Source: a virus | Lineage: Duplodnaviria > Heunggongvirae > Uroviricota > Caudoviricetes > Crassvirales | Length of the DNA stretch: 64,000 nucleotides | Direction: 5' to 3' (one strand) | IMG/VR virus record: IMGVR_UViG_2974729448_000001 | Span: 3,318-67,317 of that record | Part shown: positions 19,538 to 32,401 of the stretch, piece after piece | Layout of the letters: each line of letters starts with the position of its first letter | Position numbering within the stretch: the stretch's first letter is position 1 | Notes under the pieces: model-generated | Database searches by the model: none | Seen by the model: only the letters and a program-made list of their open reading frames with translations | What the model was told of the DNA's origin: nothing | Position numbers and translations under genes: made by a program

Positions 19538-19612
19538 CTGGGATGATAGGACTTGAACCTACTATCACCTGATTAACAGTCAGGGGCTGTATACCACTTA
19601 AGCTTCATCCCA
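19538..19612 (-). tRNA. tRNA-Asn (anticodon GUU)
   Basis: Acceptor TGGGATG/CATCCCA, anticodon stem CCTGA/TCAGG with loop CTGTTAA, T-arm GTAGG-TTCAAGT-CCTAT. Confidence 0.6.
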
Positions 19613-20304: not shown

Positions 20305-20309
20305 ATAAG

Positions 20310-20383
20310 TTGCAGGGAGTGGATTTGAACCACTGTTCTCCTGTGAATGTGCACAGGTGAGATAACCACTTCTCCACCCTACG
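20310..20383 (-). tRNA. unusual tRNA with CAU-containing non-canonical anticodon loop (initiator-like features; possible pseudogene)
   Basis: Acceptor CGTAGGG/CCCTGCA with a C1.A72 mismatch. D-stem GAGA/TCTC (A11:U24). Anticodon region CCTGTG-CACATT-CACAGG folds as a 6-bp stem with 6-nt loop, or a 5-bp stem with 8-nt loop GCACATTC, never 5+7. T-arm AGTGG-TTCAAAT-CCACT. Confidence 0.45.
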
Positions 20384-26235: not shown

Positions 26236-26243
26236 CTAAATAA

Positions 26244-26330
26244 GAATACATAGCTTAATGGTAAAGCTTGGTGTGATAAACTGTAACTCATGTCTAACAG
26301 TGATATAGGTTCAAATCCTGTTGTATTCTT
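26244..26330 (+). ncRNA. tRNA-like element without a canonical anticodon arm
   Basis: Perfect acceptor GAATACA/TGTATTC, D-arm GCTT-AATGGTA-AAGC, T-arm ATAGG-TTCAAAT-CCTGT. The 36 nt between D- and T-arms contain no 5-bp stem + 7-nt loop; an exhaustive hand search was done. The only helix is ACTGT-(12 nt)-ACAGT. Confidence 0.4.
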
Positions 26331-26339
26331 ATTTATTTT

Positions 26340-26643
26340 GGGGCATGATTTGGTTTTGATTGCTGATTATTTGGTAAGAGAACATGCAGAGACTGATGGA
26401 GAGACATCAAAACAATAACTGACAACACTTATAGAGTTGCTGCCTAAATTAGGCTAAGCAGCACTTGCTTTGAAACAGAAAGGTGCAAACAAAGGATTTC
26501 TTGCATAGATTAATGCAAGTGGTGGATTGTGTTGATTTCTGGTCAACCCCAGTGGATAACTAACCACATCAAAAATAGTAAGCATGTGTAATTCTTTTAT
26601 TAAAGATTGGTAAGACAAGGGTTCGAGTCCCTTATGCTCCACC
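26340..26643 (+). ncRNA. ssrA: tmRNA (SsrA)
   Basis: 5' end GGGGCATGATTTGG resembles E. coli GGGGCUGAUUCUGG. 3' end GGTTCGAGTCCCTTATGCTCCACC has a T-arm plus acceptor pairing with the 5' end, including the G3.U70 wobble. Internal tag-like frame ...D-N-T-Y-R-V-A-A-TAA (26421..26447). The 64-aa minus-strand ORF 26454..26648 overlaps and is discounted. Confidence 0.75.
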
Positions 26644-28903: not shown

Positions 28904-30325
28904 ATGTGTTCTAAATTAAATCCGTCATTAAAACCATCATTAAAATTAGATGATGTTAGATTGGCTGGTGGTTCTGGTGCTAAAGCAGCTAAACAATCAG
29001 AAATAGAATTGCTAAGAAGAGTAGTTTTAGCCAATCTACTTTGGGAAGATGTTGCCTATATAGATGGCAAGAGTGTAGCTGATGAAATCAAAAGACTAAT
29101 TCCTCTATGTAAAGGTAAGGATGTAGCTAATCTTGCTCTTGAAGCAAGAATCAATCAGAAGCTCAGACATACTCCACTATTTATAGCAGTAGAGATGTGC
29201 AGATATCCAGAGCATAAGACATATGTAAAGGAATTACTTCCTATGATTATTACAAGAGCTGACATGTTGACAGACTTCTTGGCATTATATTGGAAGGATG
29301 GAAAGAAGCCTATCTGTAATCAAGCTAAGAAAGGATTGGCAGCAGCTTTTCATAATTTCAATGAATACAAGTTTGCTAAATATGACAGGGATGCAGCCAT
29401 TAAGTTAAGAGATGTCATGTTCTTATGTAGACCTAAGCCAAATAATGAACAGGAAGCTGAACTATTCAAAAAGATAGCTGACAGGACTCTTACCCCACCT
29501 GAAACTTGGGAAGTATTACTTTCTGCTGGTAAAGATAAGAAAGAGACTTGGCAATACCTTATTAATAATGGAAAGATTGGAGGTCTTGCAATGCTGAGGA
29601 ATATTAGTAATATGATGAAAGCTAATGTAGACAAGGAAATCATAAGATATGGTCTTAGAAGTTTAAAGTCCTCAATGCTTTTACCTCTTGATTTCTTTAA
29701 ATCTGCAAGAATGGCTACTGAATTTAAGAGAGATATTGAAGATGCAATGATTGAATCATATAAATCTCTTCCTAAATTGAAAGGAAATACCTTATTCATT
29801 GTAGATGTATCAGGTTCCATGCTTTCTAATTTATCAGGTAAATCATCATTTTCAAGACTGGATGCTGCCTGTGCAATGGCTATGTTGGCTATTAACCAGT
29901 GTGAGAGATATGAACTTGTAACTACAGCAGGAGATGATTATAGAAGAATTCAATCATCTGAACATATTAAATATCCTGAGAGAGGATTTGGAGTGTTCAA
30001 TCAAATAAAACAGTCAATGGGTAAGATTGGTAGTGGAGGTATCTTTACTAAACAATGTCTTGACTGGTGTAGGAAGAAGTTTGGAGGAGTCAAGTTTGAT
30101 AGAATAATCATATTCTCAGATTCACAAGATATTGATTATCACTATGATAAGACTATACTTCCTGAGCCTTTTGGTAAATGTAATTACATCTGTGATGTTT
30201 CAGCAGAACTTAGAGGTGTGAATTATAAAGGCAGATGGACAGCAGAAATTGGTGGTTTTTCAGAGCATTTCCTTACTTATATTGCAGCTTTAGAAGGATT
30301 GCAGAATAAGTTTGAGGAACAATAA
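28904..30325 (+). CDS. rsr: Ro60/Rsr orthologue (TROVE domain + vWA domain)
   Basis: 473-aa ORF. PLFIAVEMCRYPEHK, MLRNISNMMKANV and the MIDAS region LFIVDVSGSM...AACAMAMLAI align by eye with Ro60 (as I recall it: PMLFALAI..., LLRNLGKMTANSV, LLAVDVSASM...AAAMCMVV). N-terminal ~300 aa are helical-repeat-like, C-terminal ~170 aa vWA. Confidence 0.75.
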   Translation: MCSKLNPSLKPSLKLDDVRLAGGSGAKAAKQSEIELLRRVVLANLLWEDVAYIDGKSVADEIKRLIPLCKGKDVANLALEARINQKLRHTPLFIAVEMCRYPEHKTYVKELLPMIITRADMLTDFLALYWKDGKKPICNQAKKGLAAAFHNFNEYKFAKYDRDAAIKLRDVMFLCRPKPNNEQEAELFKKIADRTLTPPETWEVLLSAGKDKKETWQYLINNGKIGGLAMLRNISNMMKANVDKEIIRYGLRSLKSSMLLPLDFFKSARMATEFKRDIEDAMIESYKSLPKLKGNTLFIVDVSGSMLSNLSGKSSFSRLDAACAMAMLAINQCERYELVTTAGDDYRRIQSSEHIKYPERGFGVFNQIKQSMGKIGSGGIFTKQCLDWCRKKFGGVKFDRIIIFSDSQDIDYHYDKTILPEPFGKCNYICDVSAELRGVNYKGRWTAEIGGFSEHFLTYIAALEGLQNKFEEQ

Positions 30326-30512
30326 TATAATGTCATTAGTGTATTACAGATTTACATCAATAATCTTTTAAATTATCCAGATAACTATAATCTGTTAAAT
30401 GTTCTATGGCATTTTTCTTATAAAGACATCATTAGTGTAGCACAGAGTTACTTCATAAATAGTCATAAGCAAAACTCACTCTTTGCACTATTCTATGATG
30501 TCTTTTTTCTTT

Positions 30513-30654
30513 GGAGGGATAGCTCAGTTGGTAGAGCAGCAGTATAAATGAAAATTACACTTTAGTCATGGTTCCACAGCAGTGTTGGTGTAGATTAGAG
30601 TTACTTCAAAGCCTTGTAAGCTGCGGGTCATTGGTTCAAGTCCAATTCCCTCCA
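30513..30654 (+). ncRNA. tRNA-like RNA with ~76-nt insertion replacing the anticodon loop; candidate Y RNA (YrlA-like) partner of Ro60
   Basis: GGAGGGA-TA-GCTC-AGTTGGTA-GAGC-A-GCAGT[76-nt insert]GCTGC-GGGTC-ATTGG-TTCAAGT-CCAAT-TCCCTCC-A. Canonical acceptor, D-arm, T-arm and anticodon-stem-like pairing, with no anticodon loop. Lies 188 nt downstream of the Ro60 gene. Confidence 0.5.
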
Positions 30655-30847
30655 CAAAAGATTAGTGATTATAACACTTACTTCAACAATAATTTAACAG
30701 AAAAAAAAAATTGGTATTTTTTCAATATATAATTTAAAAATTAGTGTTATAGCATGTCCTATCTTAAGGCTGTCAGTGTTTCTGGCAGCCTTTTTTATTG
30801 TAAGTTTTTCTTATAAATATATTATTAACATCTAAAAAAAAAAAATC

Positions 30848-31204
30848 ATGAAAGAAAATGAAGCAAAAGAGTTAGTTAAATTGTTAGGTCTTGATAAACC
30901 TATGGACCCAGATGTAATTAAGCTTCTATTTGAAGCTGTTAAAGAGATTGGAGATAAAGTGGGAGATGAAAATGCAGAGGAGGCAAGAGACACAATAGAT
31001 AAGGCTATGGACAGTCTTAAAGATAACCAAACAAAGGCTATGATTATCTCTTATCTACTTAGCAAGCTCCCCTTGGAGCTGACTAATTTCCTAATGGAAA
31101 ATATGAAGGAATTAGTTATGGCAAGTACTCTAAGTAATATTACTGGAGGTTCTGAAGATGACTCTATTCAGTCTAAACTATTAGAATTGATGAAGAGTAA
31201 CTAA
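30848..31204 (+). CDS. hypothetical acidic helical protein
   Basis: 118-aa ORF preceded by an A12 tract. Confidence 0.4.
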   Translation: MKENEAKELVKLLGLDKPMDPDVIKLLFEAVKEIGDKVGDENAEEARDTIDKAMDSLKDNQTKAMIISYLLSKLPLELTNFLMENMKELVMASTLSNITGGSEDDSIQSKLLELMKSN

Positions 31205-31430: not shown

Positions 31431-31616
31431 ATGAAGGTTTTATTAGTGGCTGCATGGATTGTGATTGCCATGTGGAGTGTATCTATTGCATTCCACATGA
31501 TGTCAGCTTCCAATACAGTGGAGAATGTTATAGGATTCTTCTTATTAGTAATTATTGGCTTGGTGTCCTATAACACTAAGTGTTTTTCAAGTTTTAAATT
31601 TAAAAGAAGGAAATGA
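31431..31616 (+). CDS. small membrane protein
   Basis: 61-aa ORF, two hydrophobic helices. Confidence 0.3.
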   Translation: MKVLLVAAWIVIAMWSVSIAFHMMSASNTVENVIGFFLLVIIGLVSYNTKCFSSFKFKRRK

Positions 31617-32401
31617 AAAGTAGATTTGTTTTAGGAATGCTCACTGCCCTTATTATGGTGAGTGTAATGTTTACATCATGTGAAAGAATTGATGCAGGAT
31701 GTGAAGGTATCAAAGTGAATCTCTATGGAGATGATAAGGGAGTTGGAGATGTTGCTTTGGTTACTGGTAGAGTATGGTATAATCCATTTACTACTGAAAT
31801 CTTTGAATATGAAACATATGTCAAGACTGTAGATTATCCTCCTTTCAAGATTAATGCACAAGATGGTTCAGAGTTTACAGTTGACCCAACAGTTTCATTG
31901 AAGATTATTGATGGAAAGTCTCCTGAAGTGTTCAAGAAGTATAGAAAGGGATTAAATGAAGTAATTACTGGAACCTTATTTAATTATGTAAGAGATGCTT
32001 TTAGGATTCAGCTTAATAACTTTACTACTGATTATATAGTTAGTCACAGAGACAGTATTGAGAAAGCTATAGAAGCTCATCTTGGTTCATCATTGGCAAA
32101 AGAGAACTTTCAGTTGGAGCAATTAACTTCAGGACTCAGTTATCCCCAGACTATTGTAGATGCTGTAGATGCAAAGAATAAAGCTGTTCAGCAAGCAATG
32201 CAAGTTGAGAATGAAGTGAAGGTAGCTGAGGCTCAGGCTAAGAAGCTTATTGTAGCTGCTGAGGCTGAATATAGAGCTAATGAATTGAAAACTAAAGCTT
32301 TGACTCCTGCCATTCTTGAACAAATGTGGATTGAGAAATGGGATGGTAAATTACCTGTATATGGTCAGGTTCCTACCCTATTTAAGAATATAGGACAGTA
32401 G
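31613..32401 (+). CDS. SPFH/band-7-like lipoprotein
   Basis: 262-aa ORF. Signal peptide ending in lipobox-like FTSC. Alpha-helical AEAEAEYRANE segment typical of SPFH (HflK/C, stomatin-like) proteins. Confidence 0.45.
   Translation: MKSRFVLGMLTALIMVSVMFTSCERIDAGCEGIKVNLYGDDKGVGDVALVTGRVWYNPFTTEIFEYETYVKTVDYPPFKINAQDGSEFTVDPTVSLKIIDGKSPEVFKKYRKGLNEVITGTLFNYVRDAFRIQLNNFTTDYIVSHRDSIEKAIEAHLGSSLAKENFQLEQLTSGLSYPQTIVDAVDAKNKAVQQAMQVENEVKVAEAQAKKLIVAAEAEYRANELKTKALTPAILEQMWIEKWDGKLPVYGQVPTLFKNIGQ

What the first reader, a model, noticed from the sequence alone, without database searches (positions are those of the whole stretch)
30513..30654. tRNA gene whose anticodon loop is replaced by a ~76-nt insert
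Acceptor GGAGGGA/TCCCTCC, D-arm GCTC-AGTTGGTA-GAGC, T-arm ATTGG-TTCAAGT-CCAAT and a 5-bp anticodon-stem-like helix GCAGT/GCTGC are all canonical. The two stem strands are separated by ~76 nt instead of 7. The region is too short for a group I intron and has no encoded CCA. Three readings are possible: a Y RNA-like tRNA mimic, a tRNA with an unusual short intron, or a disrupted tRNA. I could not identify an anticodon.
Basis: seen in the sequence. Interest (0 to 1): 0.65.

Follow-up and report, generated by a model that had tools for sequence, protein, structure and literature searches.

The report
tRNA-shaped Y RNA beside phage Ro60
This is most likely neither a broken tRNA nor a tRNA with an intron, but a tRNA-shaped non-coding "Y RNA" that a crAss-like human-gut phage encodes just after its Ro60 (TROVE) gene; its predicted Ro60-binding hairpin is inserted in the anticodon arm, which is the reverse of the gene order in known bacterial YrlA RNAs.

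Summary
Window 30513-30654 (+) has canonical acceptor, D and T arms, and 76 nt lie between the two anticodon-stem strands. The window is crAss-like phage cr106_1, where this stretch is unannotated. A Ro60/TROVE gene ends 188 nt upstream. The insert is a conserved two-helix module: UGUUC-Y / capped bulged hairpin / U-R-G-U-G / 9-bp helix / UUACUUCA. The same module occurs in three stand-alone hairpin RNAs on either side of the element. It occurs 2-6 times next to TROVE genes in most of 60 related phage loci. It also marks 59 of 67 bacterial loci that hold a TROVE gene. All helices covary (95.9% paired against 37-49% when the partners are slid). Cutting the element in the hairpin loop and rejoining its ends gives a sequence colinear with classical YrlA RNAs of Caulobacter phage CcrColossus and a Rhizobium phage. 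It is therefore a YrlA-class Y RNA in tRNA gene order, with an open acceptor end and a closed Ro60-binding stem. crAss-like loci gave 45 tRNA-order calls and no classical ones. Bacterial loci gave 88 classical calls and 4 tRNA-order calls. The "tRNA-Thr(UGU) with intron" call from ARAGORN is incidental, because close relatives have Lys-like or degenerate loops. Transcription, Ro60 binding and function are inferred, not shown. Verdict: a new variant of a known kind.

The parts
28904..30325 (+). Ro60/Rsr-like protein gene (TROVE plus vWA domains), 473 aa. It is the presumed protein partner of the RNAs that follow.
   Evidence: Pfam gives TROVE at 1.5e-11 (above its cutoff), with vWA_Ro60 below its cutoff. 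The protein aligns over residues 24-464 with the Thermus phage phiLo Ro60 structures 9KOP and 9L5Y, E about 4e-15. The public record annotates it as a TROVE domain protein. The crAss001 orthologue is reported as an early gene (PMC8375218).
30330..30412 (+). Hairpin-type Y RNA 'A' (YrlB-like). The RNA ends lie in stem S1 (AUGUCAU/AUGGCAU). It has a bulged U, AG/CU, UG, stem S2 (ACAGAUU/AAUCUGU), UACAUCA, and the 3' strand UAAAUGUU-CU.
   Evidence: Motif search, fold, module extraction with a shuffle control.
30422..30505 (+). Hairpin-type Y RNA 'B'. It has S1 AAGACAUCAU/AUGAUGUCUU, then U-AG-UG, S2 ending in AGAGU, UACUUCA, the 3' strand ..CUAUU-CU, and a following U-run.
   Evidence: The fold has z = -3.47. 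Motif search and module extraction.
30513..30654 (+). The finding itself: a tRNA-order YrlA-like Y RNA of 142 nt, including discriminator A at 30654.
   Evidence: ARAGORN in intron mode. Covariance model R1 and its hits. Covariation. Permuted colinearity with classical YrlA.
30513..30537 (+). Acceptor 5' strand GGAGGGA, then U8 A9, then the D arm GCUC-AGUUGGUA-GAGC. A14, G15, G18, G19 and A21 are present.
   Evidence: Sequence. The D arm is invariant in alignment A1. The acceptor stem covaries.
30539..30540 (+). G27 and C28, which pair with G42 and C43 (30623-30624). This is the base of the anticodon stem and closes a three-way junction.
   Evidence: Both pairs covary: 100% of cells pair in A1 and 87.7% in A2, with four or five pair types each.
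30559..30567 (+). S2 strand ACUUUAGUC, which pairs with 30593-30601. In classical YrlA this corresponds to the anticodon-stem strand that follows the D arm.
   Evidence: Nine base pairs. The four distal pairs show changes on both sides.
30568..30573 (+). Conserved internal-loop strand AUGGUU. The family consensus is (A)AUGUU, followed by C-Y.
   Evidence: Alignment A1. 'UU' precedes C-Y in 124 of 125 good hairpin modules, although the search did not require it.
30574..30588 (+). S1 hairpin CC-ACA-GCAG-UGU-(U)-GG. It has two proximal pairs (C-G and Y-R), a bulged U, a 3-bp distal helix and a capping tetraloop. In classical YrlA this stem carries the RNA's 5' and 3' ends.
   Evidence: 98% of cells pair and all five pairs show changes on both sides. 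The Y-R pair is UA in 49 sequences and CG in 25, with no mismatch.
30586..30592 (+). The motif U-G-G-U-G-U-A (URGUG(U/A)A; its first three bases UGG overlap the S1 hairpin above). It is the probable Ro60-contact strand. Compare GGCGUAG in CcrColossus YrlA, the published GNCGAAN0-1G, and vertebrate GGUCCGA.
   Evidence: The published motifs come from PMC4201824. The correspondence is inferred by position and resemblance, not by any test.
30593..30601 (+). S2 strand GAUUAGAGU.
30602..30609 (+). UACUUCAA. Together with the preceding U it forms the near-invariant UUACUUC, which is the 'YUAY' of published YrlA.
   Evidence: Columns invariant in A1. Used as an anchor. YUAY and the UA kink are described.
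30610..30622 (+). Mini-hairpin AGC-CUUGUAA-GCU. It is a relic of the anticodon arm, or the 'V' stem-loop of YrlA nomenclature. ARAGORN reads UGU in its loop.
   Evidence: In relatives the loop is CUUUUAA, CUCUUAA, AUGUUGAAA, a 5-nt loop or a 3-nt loop, so it is not conserved as an anticodon.
30625..30653 (+). Variable loop GGGUC (C48 can pair with G15), T arm AUUGG-UUCAAGU-CCAAU, and acceptor 3' strand UCCCUCC.
   Evidence: Sequence; covariation.
30658..30765 (+). Hairpin-type Y RNA 'E'. It has S1 AAGAU/AUCUU, then U-AG-UG, S2 AUUAUAACACU/AGUGUUAUAG, UACUUCA, a long A/U-rich apical part, and the 3' strand CAUGUC-CU.
   Evidence: The fold of 30655-30800, which includes the adjacent terminator hairpin, has z = -4.12. 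Motif search and module extraction.
30766..30798 (+). Intrinsic-terminator-like hairpin of 11 bp (6 G-C) followed by a T-run. It closes the TROVE plus Y-RNA array.
   Evidence: It is the only terminator-like site on the + strand between 28700 and 31000. The next ORF starts at 30848.

Best explanation
The element is a Y RNA of the bacterial YrlA class and the presumed RNA partner of the phage's own Ro60 (TROVE) protein. It is built in tRNA gene order. A complete tRNA-like core (acceptor, D arm, T arm, variable loop and the first two anticodon-stem pairs) carries a side arm on its anticodon stem. That arm is the conserved Y-RNA module: helix S2, an internal loop (UGUA against AUGGUU), and a bulged helix S1 capped by a tetraloop. 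UUACUUCA follows the module, and a small relic of the anticodon hairpin follows that. Classical YrlA has the same parts but is circularly permuted: its ends lie in S1 and its acceptor stem is closed by a loop. Proposed working, with each step marked. (1) Partly shown, partly inferred: the TROVE gene and four module-bearing RNAs (two hairpin-type, this one, one more hairpin-type) lie head to tail within 1.9 kb. The only predicted intrinsic terminator is at 30766-30798, so they are probably one early transcription unit. (2) Inferred: the open 7-bp acceptor stem makes this RNA a substrate for host RNase P, 3' trimming and CCA addition. That would mature it and also release its hairpin neighbours, which end 8 nt upstream and start 4 nt downstream. 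(3) Inferred by homology: Ro60 binds the URGUGUA / UGUUC-Y bulged helix. (4) Inferred by analogy with Deinococcus, Salmonella and Thermus phage phiLo: the tRNA-like domain and the single-stranded UUACUUCA stabilise the RNA and recruit an effector such as host PNPase, which redirects RNA decay or quality control early in infection.
For: Context. The window is crAss-like phage cr106_1. A TROVE plus vWA protein gene ends 188 nt upstream on the same strand. The stretch 30326-30847 has no annotation in the public record.

Module. The motif TTAGTGWW-N4-12-TTACWTCA occurs 3 times in the 64-kb window, against 0.01 expected. All three copies, plus the TTGGTG variant inside the element, lie within 350 nt. 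The same motif occurs 2-6 times beside the TROVE gene in most of 60 IMG/VR loci whose TROVE proteins are 42-93% identical to this one; six loci had no match to the pattern.

Structure. In the MAFFT alignment of 10 diverse copies, 95.9% of cells pair, against 37-49% when the partners are slid, and 20 of 32 pairs change on both sides. In the model-fitted alignment of 109 distinct sequences S1 is 98% paired, S2 is 92% paired, and the covariation score is 0.569 against 0.155 in shuffles. Among hairpin-type copies, 125 of 257 distinct anchors find a partner scoring 13 or more, against 10 of 1285 after shuffling.

Link to Ro60 beyond these phages. A pattern made of the module plus a T arm hit 67 bacterial genome loci, where my estimate of chance is about 2. 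Of these, 59 hold a TROVE-like ORF within the 8-kb locus, on the same strand as the RNA in every one of those loci, and the other 8 lie near a locus edge.

Homology with published YrlA-bearing phages. CcrColossus has five classical YrlA-type RNAs with GGCGUAG...UUACUUC...T arm...closed acceptor...D arm...GCUUGUUCC. The permuted window element aligns colinearly with a Rhizobium phage TM30 YrlA (score 126, against 53 +/- 5.5 for shuffles and 79 unpermuted) and with a CcrColossus YrlA (92, against 47.5 +/- 5.9).

Topology census. crAss-like loci gave 45 tRNA-order calls and 0 classical. Bacterial loci gave 88 classical and 4 tRNA-order.

Precedents. In M. smegmatis, RNase P opens YrlA's 7-bp acceptor stem in vivo and CCA is then added (PMC4201824). 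Thermus phage phiLo Ro60 binds phage Y-like RNAs and host PNPase in vitro (PMC12135203).
Against: There is no direct evidence here for transcription, processing or Ro60 binding. No Rfam family other than tRNA matches, either here or at classical YrlA loci, so family membership could not be checked against a curated model. The presumed Ro60-contact motif is GGUGUAG rather than the published GNCGAAN0-1G. A Lys-like 7-nt loop (CUUUUAA or CUCUUAA) survives in many distant lineages. This may mean the anticodon-like hairpin has a function of its own that this account does not cover. The role of the near-invariant UUACUUCA is unknown. The covariation counts include related sequences and, in A2, a model-fitted alignment.
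Confidence: 0.82

Rival explanations
1. It is a functional tRNA-Thr(UGU) gene interrupted by a 69-nt intron, which is removed to give a decoding tRNA.
For: ARAGORN in intron mode makes exactly this call, with a perfect cloverleaf and a canonical loop CUUGUAA. No other tRNA-Thr or tRNA-Lys is found in the window. Many distant homologues keep a 7-nt loop with U33 and A37-A38.
Against: Close relatives with identical acceptor, D and T arms have CUUUUAA (Lys), the 9-nt loop AUGUUGAAA (crAss001), or no hairpin at all (cr112_1). More distant relatives with divergent arms have 3-nt or 5-nt loops. The anticodon is therefore not conserved although the body is. The insert lies at 28/29 or 31/32, not at a known bacterial intron site. 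At 69 nt it is far below group I intron size, and no intron or ribozyme family matches at E <= 10. The insert is the same module found in stand-alone hairpin RNAs next door and in YrlA RNAs of bacteria. Bacteria are not known to have a bulge-helix-bulge splicing endonuclease (established knowledge, also stated).
Confidence: 0.05
2. It is a tRNA pseudogene, probably a former tRNA-Lys, disrupted by insertion of a repeated hairpin element and no longer functional.
For: The body resembles tRNA-Lys/Thr/Phe genes of other phages. The module is a dispersed local repeat. The number of copies of tRNA-type elements varies among relatives, and one copy has been lost in this phage.
Against: Every helix of both the tRNA core and the insert is kept by compensatory changes across phages whose TROVE proteins are only 42-93% identical. 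The D-loop and T-loop tertiary nucleotides are intact. The same architecture recurs in Myxococcota. A decaying pseudogene would not show this.
Confidence: 0.03
3. The repeated 24-nt motif acts at the DNA level, for example as an early promoter or other protein-binding site of the phage, and the tRNA-like element merely happens to contain one copy.
For: The two conserved blocks (TRGTG and GTTACTTCA) are at fixed spacing. They cluster in an early-gene region (PMC8375218).
Against: In this window the motif matches significantly only beside the TROVE gene. Its flanks form two helices with partners 40-200 nt away, and those helices covary, including a strict R-Y covariation (UA in 49 sequences, CG in 25, no mismatch). 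The motif also occurs in bacteria from unrelated phyla that have different transcription machinery, always next to TROVE.
Confidence: 0.03
4. It is a tRNA-like processing or decoy element that works independently of Ro60. For example it could be an RNase P/Z punctuation signal, or a decoy for host nucleases that target tRNA-Lys. On this view the link to TROVE is only genomic.
For: The acceptor end is open and 7 bp long. The neighbouring RNAs are very close (8 nt and 4 nt away). Lys-like loops are widespread.
Against: The most conserved parts are the module shared with classical YrlA, not the anticodon-like hairpin. The association with TROVE holds in 59 of 67 bacterial loci and across the phage loci. 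A punctuation role is compatible with the main explanation and does not compete with it.
Confidence: 0.06

Closest known systems
YrlA (Y RNA-like A) of bacteria and some phages: S. Typhimurium, M. smegmatis, mycobacteriophages, Caulobacter phage CcrColossus (Chen et al. 2014, PMC4201824; Wang et al. 2018, bioRxiv 10.1101/312249)
   Same: It is encoded next to the Ro60 orthologue on the same strand. It has a tRNA-like domain with the conserved GCUC/GAGC D stem, the GG D loop, the UUCRANY T loop and a G15-C48 pair. It has YUAY (here UUAC) after the helix that corresponds to the anticodon stem. It has the bulged Ro60-binding helix with a G-rich 5' strand. It comes with one or more hairpin-type Y RNAs. 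At sequence level it is colinear with classical YrlA after circular permutation.
   Different: The connectivity is reversed. Here the 5' and 3' ends lie in a 7-bp acceptor stem and the Ro60-binding stem is capped by a tetraloop. Published YrlA has its ends in the Ro60-binding stem and a loop-closed acceptor stem, with the T arm 5' of the D arm. The motif here is GGUGUAG, not GNCGAAN0-1G. A 7-nt anticodon-like loop is kept, whereas YrlA is described as lacking an anticodon loop.
[quoted passage not shown]
   Same: The end product there is also a tRNA-like domain with an open 7-bp acceptor stem attached to a Ro60-binding stem.
   Different: In M. smegmatis it is a two-piece RNA made by cleaving a classical YrlA. 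Here the gene order would give the open acceptor directly, as a single chain.
Hairpin-type bacterial Y RNAs (YrlB, Yrn2) and the Thermus phage phiLo RNAs Yrl1 and Yrl2 (PMC12135203)
   Same: The three neighbours at 30330-30412, 30422-30505 and 30658-30765 have the layout of stem, bulge, stem and apical loop, with the ends in the stem, next to a phage Ro60 gene.
   Different: The element under study has a full tRNA core, which these lack. phiLo Yrls were identified by a CGAA motif that is absent here.
Circularly permuted tRNA genes of red algae and archaea, and intron-containing tRNAs
   Same: They show a rearranged order of tRNA halves, or an insertion in the anticodon arm.
   Different: Those are processed into decoding tRNAs by the splicing endonuclease and a ligase. 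Nothing here points to excision, and the anticodon is not conserved.
tmRNA and viral tRNA-like structures
   Same: They are tRNA mimics with a free acceptor end and a large functional insertion in place of the anticodon arm. The same phage encodes a tmRNA 4 kb upstream.
   Different: There is no mRNA-like reading frame or pseudoknot array, there is no match to the tmRNA model, and the partner protein is different (Ro60 rather than SmpB).

Membership tests
YrlA-class Y RNA | Encoded within about 4 kb of a Ro60/TROVE gene, on the same strand | tested here: met
   The TROVE ORF is at 28904-30325 (+) and the RNA starts at 30513 (+). The same holds in related phage loci.
YrlA-class Y RNA | A tRNA-like domain with conserved D and T arms and the nucleotides needed for tRNA tertiary contacts | tested here: met
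   U8, A14, G15/C48, G18 G19, A21, G53-C61, U54 U55 C56 and A58 are all present in the sequence. The D arm is invariant and identical in type to that of CcrColossus and Rhizobium phage YrlAs. The 3-D fold was not tested.
YrlA-class Y RNA | The conserved YUAY that follows the helix corresponding to the anticodon stem | tested here: met
   UUAC at 30601-30604, within the near-invariant UUACUUC.
YrlA-class Y RNA | The Ro60-binding motif GNCGAAN0-1G on the 5' strand of the terminal stem | tested here: not met
   The element contains no CGAA. The equivalent position holds GGUGUAG. CcrColossus YrlAs have GGCGUAG at that position, so this looks like a variant of the motif. That reading rests on resemblance, not on a test.
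YrlA-class Y RNA | Topology: RNA ends in the Ro60-binding stem, acceptor-like stem closed by a loop, T arm 5' of the D arm | tested here: not met
   The order here is acceptor 5' strand, D arm, module, T arm, acceptor 3' strand. S1 is capped by the GCAG loop. It aligns with classical YrlA only after permutation.
YrlA-class Y RNA | Bound by the Ro60 orthologue in vivo, and dependent on it for stability | not testable with these tools
   This needs immunoprecipitation, gel-shift assays and genetics.
YrlA-class Y RNA | A match to a curated covariance model | tested here: inconclusive
   Rfam 15 gave only tRNA hits, both here and at classical YrlA loci in Caulobacter, Bradyrhizobium and CcrColossus-like arrays. 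The library evidently does not detect this family, so the test says nothing either way.
Decoding tRNA (tRNA-Thr or tRNA-Lys) with an intron | Anticodon and anticodon loop conserved among orthologues | tested here: not met
   The loop is CUUGUAA here, CUUUUAA in L013/L021/L046, AUGUUGAAA in crAss001, and absent or different in cr112_1. All of these have the same acceptor, D and T arms.
Decoding tRNA (tRNA-Thr or tRNA-Lys) with an intron | An insert recognisable as a self-splicing (group I) intron, or placed at a canonical splice position | tested here: not met
   The insert is 69 nt. No intron or ribozyme family matches at E <= 10. Its position is 28/29 or 31/32.
Decoding tRNA (tRNA-Thr or tRNA-Lys) with an intron | A spliced, aminoacylated mature form exists | not testable with these tools
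   This needs RNA sequencing or acid-gel Northern blots.
Ro60/Rsr protein (the neighbouring ORF) | A TROVE HEAT-repeat ring plus a vWA domain | tested here: met
   Pfam TROVE at 44.6 bits against a cutoff of 23. vWA_Ro60 at 22.5 bits, below its cutoff of 27.7. Near full-length alignment to the phage Ro60 structure 9KOP. No structure was predicted.

The most novel reading that the evidence does not exclude
The tRNA-order form may be more than a topological curiosity. Host RNase P, RNase Z and the CCA-adding enzyme may mature it into a tRNA look-alike with a free CCA end. Its Lys-type anticodon-like hairpin, kept in many lineages, would then let the Ro60 particle pose as tRNA-Lys. It could act as a decoy, sensor or repair platform against host tRNA-targeting defence nucleases, or it could deliver Ro60 with PNPase to the tRNA-handling machinery. 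A further reading is evolutionary. The crAss-like and Myxococcota forms may preserve the ancestral state, showing that YrlA arose from a tRNA-Lys gene that acquired a Ro60-binding hairpin in its anticodon stem and was permuted later.
Probability: 0.15. Interest if true: 0.8.

Novelty: new variant of a known kind. Interest (0 to 1): 0.58.

Why it matters
crAss-like phages are among the most abundant viruses of the human gut, and their early genes are largely unexplained. This analysis assigns a 440-nt unannotated stretch after the early TROVE gene to an array of four Y RNAs. It also supplies a simple sequence signature that finds Ro60-associated RNAs in many phages and bacterial phyla. The signature is UGUUC-Y, a hairpin or a distant partner strand, U-R-G-U-G, 9-10 nt, then GUUACUUC. 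The tRNA-order topology bears on an open question about why bacterial Y RNAs mimic tRNA. If a free acceptor end is tolerated, or even selected, then processing by RNase P/Z and CCA addition may be part of Y RNA biology more generally, as hinted by M. smegmatis YrlA. The form also offers a natural single-chain construct for structural work on a Ro60-YrlA complex. Commensal Ro60 orthologues have been discussed as triggers of anti-Ro autoimmunity, so a highly abundant phage Ro60 particle in the gut is also of some medical interest. That last point rests on my own background knowledge and was not tested here.

Tried and rejected
Default ARAGORN and Rfam at gathering score do not see the element. 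An Rfam scan of 30300-30900 at E <= 10 gave only weak chance-level hits (miRNA, sRNA, a partial tRNA) and no Y RNA, intron or ribozyme family.

Minimum-free-energy folding of the whole element and of the insert alone is not better than shuffles (z = -1.36 and 0.00). By thermodynamics alone the insert looks unstructured. Covariation is what shows the structure.

I first took UAG/CUA plus a longer internal loop as the S1 geometry. After comparing L048, L062 and L045 I revised it to two proximal pairs plus a bulged U.

A possible pairing of UGAA (30549-30552) with UUCA (30605-30608), predicted by the fold, is not conserved in relatives and was dropped.

A simple structural filter for the IMG/VR pattern hits failed, because many matches span two adjacent RNAs. 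Counting motifs per locus was more informative. In that scan 73 of the 77 TROVE-less hits have a single motif and cannot be told apart from chance.

The protein homologue search returned only close crAss-like relatives among its top 120 and did not help with host bacteria. Supplementary alignments of Chen et al. 2014 are not held, and two reviews could not be read.

I did not build a second covariance model for the hairpin-type RNAs and did not predict the TROVE protein structure.
Full report
**What is in the sequence.** Window 30513-30654 (+) reads GGAGGGA-UA-GCUC-AGUUGGUA-GAGC-A-GCAGU ... 76 nt lie between GCAGU and GCUGC, and no CCA is encoded. Default ARAGORN and the Rfam tRNA model at gathering score do not report the element. 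ARAGORN in intron mode calls it tRNA-Thr(UGU) with a 69-nt insert at position 31/32. Because GCAG occurs on both sides, the insert can be drawn equally well as a 69-nt branch leaving a perfect GC+AGC / GCUGC anticodon stem between nt 28 and 29.

**Where the window comes from.** It is 100% identical to uncultured crAss-like phage cr106_1 (MT774378; Mahstovirus faecalis, Steigviridae). The ORF that ends 188 nt upstream (28904-30325, +) is a Ro60/Rsr-like protein. It has a TROVE domain above the Pfam cutoff and a Ro60-type vWA domain just below its cutoff. It aligns almost end to end with the solved Ro60 of Thermus phage phiLo. The public record annotates nothing between this gene and the next ORF, that is window 30326-30847. 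The crAss001 orthologue is described as an early gene (PMC8375218).

**The insert is a repeated, conserved module.**
- A 24-nt motif, K-U-R-G-U-G, 10-11 nt, then UUACUUCA, occurs four times in 350 nt, at 30336, 30432, 30585 (inside the element) and 30662. It has no other significant match in the 64-kb window: 3 exact pattern matches against 0.01 expected.
- The three copies outside the element lie in long hairpins (30330-30412, 30422-30505, 30658-30765). Each has the layout terminal stem S1, bulged U, R-G, U-G, stem S2, UACUUCA, a variable apical part, the return strand of S2, (A)AUGUU, C-Y, and the return strand of S1.
- Inside the tRNA-like element the same parts are present in a different connection. 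The return strand of S2 (ACUUUAGUC) comes first, followed by AUGGUU. S1 is a short hairpin capped by GCAG (CC-ACA-GCAG-UGU-U-GG). Then come UGUA, the S2 strand GAUUAGAGU and UACUUCAA.

**Conservation and covariation.**
- The TROVE protein retrieved 60 IMG/VR loci at 42-93% identity. Most carry the motif 2-6 times beside the TROVE gene; six gave no match to the pattern.
- A covariance model built from ten diverse tRNA-type copies, with a structure I specified, found the element at 96-154 bits in 47 loci. A second, more degenerate tRNA-type copy scored about 46-80 bits in many loci.
- In the structure-blind MAFFT alignment, 95.9% of cells pair, against 37-49% with slid partners. 20 of 32 pairs change on both sides.
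- In the model-fitted alignment of 109 distinct sequences, S1 is 98% paired with all five pairs covarying. S2 is 92% paired with its four distal pairs covarying. The Y-R pair next to the bulge is U-A in 49 sequences and C-G in 25, with no mismatch.
- Among hairpin-type copies, 125 of 257 distinct anchors find a downstream partner with 13 or more contiguous S1+S2 pairs, against 10 of 1285 after shuffling. In 124 of those 125, 'UU' precedes the C-Y anchor, although the search did not ask for it.
- By contrast, plain energy folding of the insert is no better than random (z = 0.00).

**Why it is not a tRNA with an intron.**
- Relatives with identical acceptor, D and T arms have different sequences where the anticodon loop should be. 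These are CUUGUAA here, CUUUUAA (Lys-like) in L013/L021/L046, the 9-nt loop AUGUUGAAA in crAss001, and an unrelated segment in cr112_1. More distant copies have 3-nt or 5-nt loops.
- The body is therefore conserved while the "anticodon" drifts.
- The insert is too small for a group I intron, and no intron or ribozyme family matches.
- The insert is also the unit that exists on its own in the neighbouring hairpins.

**Link to known Y RNAs.** A stricter pattern (UGUUCY, 6-30 nt, URGUG, 9 nt, GUUACUUC, 12-42 nt, GGUUCRA) was scanned against one genome for each of 185,579 prokaryotic species.
- It gave 67 loci, where I estimate about 2 by chance. The hosts include Bradyrhizobium, Caulobacter, Hyphomonadaceae, Acidobacteriota, Myxococcota, Planctomycetes, Flavobacteriaceae and Bacteroidota.
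- 59 of the 67 contain a TROVE-like ORF within the 8-kb locus, on the same strand as the RNA and usually just downstream of it. The other eight lie near a locus edge.
- In most of them the order is the one published for YrlA: S1 5' strand, URGUG, S2, UUACUUC, a small hairpin, T arm, a loop-closed acceptor stem, D arm, S2 return strand, GCUUGUUCC, S1 3' strand.
- Caulobacter phage CcrColossus is cited in PMC12135203 as one of the phages in which Chen et al. found Y RNAs. It has five such RNAs in tandem upstream of its TROVE gene, with GGCGUAG where this phage has GGUGUAG.
- That position corresponds to the published GNCGAAN0-1G motif, and UUAC to the published YUAY.
- When the window element is cut in the S1 loop and its ends are joined, it aligns colinearly with a classical YrlA of Rhizobium phage TM30. 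The alignment runs through the UUGUAAGC hairpin, the T arm, the acceptor stem (UCCUCC / GGAGGA against UCCCUCC / GGAGGGA) and the D arm. The score is 126, against 53 +/- 5.5 for shuffles and 79 for the unpermuted sequence.
- It also aligns with a CcrColossus YrlA, at 92 against 47.5 +/- 5.9.

**How common the two topologies are.** A simple census gave 45 tRNA-order and 0 classical calls in the crAss-like loci, and 88 classical and 4 tRNA-order calls in the bacterial loci.
- The four are a Myxococcota MAG, Sorangium sp. So ce1014, an alphaproteobacterial MAG, and a contig in a Melainabacteria MAG. I take that last contig to be crAss-like because its TROVE ORF scores 837 bits against my profile built from crAss-like phage TROVE proteins.
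- About a third to a half of copies in each set could not be classified.
- The Sorangium copy has a perfect 7-bp GCCAGAG/CUCUGGC acceptor stem with A73.

**What it most likely does.**
- Shown: the element is a conserved structured sequence made of a tRNA core plus the Y-RNA module. It lies in a tandem array with three hairpin-type Y RNAs, directly after a Ro60 gene. A single terminator-like site (30766-30798) closes the array.
- Inferred from homology: the phage Ro60 binds the URGUG / UGUUC-Y bulged helix.
- Inferred from the M. smegmatis precedent, where RNase P opens a 7-bp YrlA acceptor stem and CCA is added: host tRNA-processing enzymes cut this RNA out of the early transcript. In doing so they also free its neighbours, which end 8 nt upstream and start 4 nt downstream.
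- Inferred by analogy with Deinococcus and Salmonella RYPER and with phiLo Ro60-Yrl-PNPase: the particle recruits a host exoribonuclease or another tRNA-binding factor early in infection.
- Not explained: the near-invariant UUACUUCA, and the frequent retention of a Lys-type loop in distant lineages.

**Comparison with what is known, and novelty.** Y RNAs next to Ro60 genes are known in bacteria and in several phages, and so is the tRNA mimicry of YrlA. To that extent the finding is a member of a known kind. Three things are not in the papers I could read or search.
- Y RNAs have not been reported in crAss-like phages, and this locus is unannotated.
- A YrlA in tRNA gene order, with a free acceptor end, a capped Ro60-binding stem and a retained anticodon-like hairpin, has not been described. 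The literature describes YrlA as resembling a circularly permuted tRNA with a closed acceptor stem and no anticodon loop.
- The compact sequence signature that links the phage and bacterial loci has not been described.

The element fails two of the published defining features of YrlA, namely the exact GNCGAA motif and the topology. It meets the others that could be tested. I therefore file it as a new variant of a known kind that very probably works like YrlA. The library I searched lacks most subscription-journal papers, so an earlier description cannot be excluded.

**Verdict.** Confidence in the identification as a YrlA-class Y RNA in tRNA order, partner of the phage Ro60, is about 0.8. Confidence in the specific downstream mechanism is much lower. 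Interest is moderate to high (0.58).

Noticed in passing
window 30330-30412, 30422-30505, 30658-30765 (+): Three unannotated hairpin-type Y RNAs (YrlB-like) carry the same Ro60-associated module. They flank the tRNA-like element at gaps of 9, 7 and 3 nt, with 4 nt between the TROVE stop codon and the first one. Hairpins A and B are each followed by a U-run.
   Followed up: yes
L001:2759-2897 (crAss001), L003:2752-2890, L056:4767-4905 and 5115-5242, and others: Relatives carry a second, and sometimes a third, tRNA-order Y RNA (GGGGAUG...CAUCCCC-A). It has a degenerate D arm and a long extra hairpin like a class II variable arm. The window phage lacks it, apparently through a deletion of about 250 nt between the two ...CC-ACA 3' ends.
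   Followed up: partly
L236 (Sorangium sp. So ce1014, reverse strand about 2150-2310), L223 (Myxococcota MAG), L244: A few bacteria also have the tRNA-order (unpermuted) YrlA next to a divergent TROVE gene. All other bacterial copies that could be classified are classical, apart from L190, which appears to be a crAss-like phage contig binned in a MAG.
   Followed up: partly
L252:1098-1165 (Caulobacter phage CcrColossus NC_019406): The record's 'tRNA-Gln' is really the 5' half (module plus T arm) of a classical YrlA. Five YrlA-type RNAs lie in tandem (about 1090-1880) upstream of the phage's TROVE gene.
   Followed up: partly
distant TROVE loci, e.g. L117:4297-4436(-), L134:2377-2498(-), L147:416-550(+), L062:4777-4911: The small hairpin after UUACUUC often has a Lys-type loop (CUUUUAA or CUCUUAA) in widely separated lineages. 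This hints that the family descends from a tRNA-Lys, or that the loop has a function of its own.
   Followed up: partly
window 26243-26330 (+) and 26340-26643 (+): An odd 88-nt tRNA-like gene is called tRNA-Ile(GAU). It has a weak anticodon stem and a long extra arm. Nine nt after it comes a phage-encoded tmRNA with the tag DNTYRVAA.
   Followed up: no
window 20309-20383 (-): A tRNA-like gene has a 6-nt anticodon loop (CACAUU). ARAGORN cannot assign it and reports 'tRNA-?(ca)'.
   Followed up: no
window 19538-19612 (-): Rfam finds a tRNA here (55.8 bits) that ARAGORN misses. Its loop CUGUUAA suggests tRNA-Asn(GUU). It is absent from the public annotation listed.
   Followed up: no
L013:330-418, L006:796-886, L007:102-191, L018:1312-1401 and others: Related phages have an 88-90-nt tRNA-like gene (GGCACAUUAGCUCAGUGGUUAGAGCA...). 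It has about 15 extra nt in the anticodon or variable region and scores 57-58 bits with the model built here. It was not examined.
   Followed up: no
window 31652-31761 (+): A weak module-like match (AUUA-UGGUG-...-UACAUCA) lies inside the ORF 31613-32401. Its stems are short (4 and 8 pairs), so it is probably chance.
   Followed up: no
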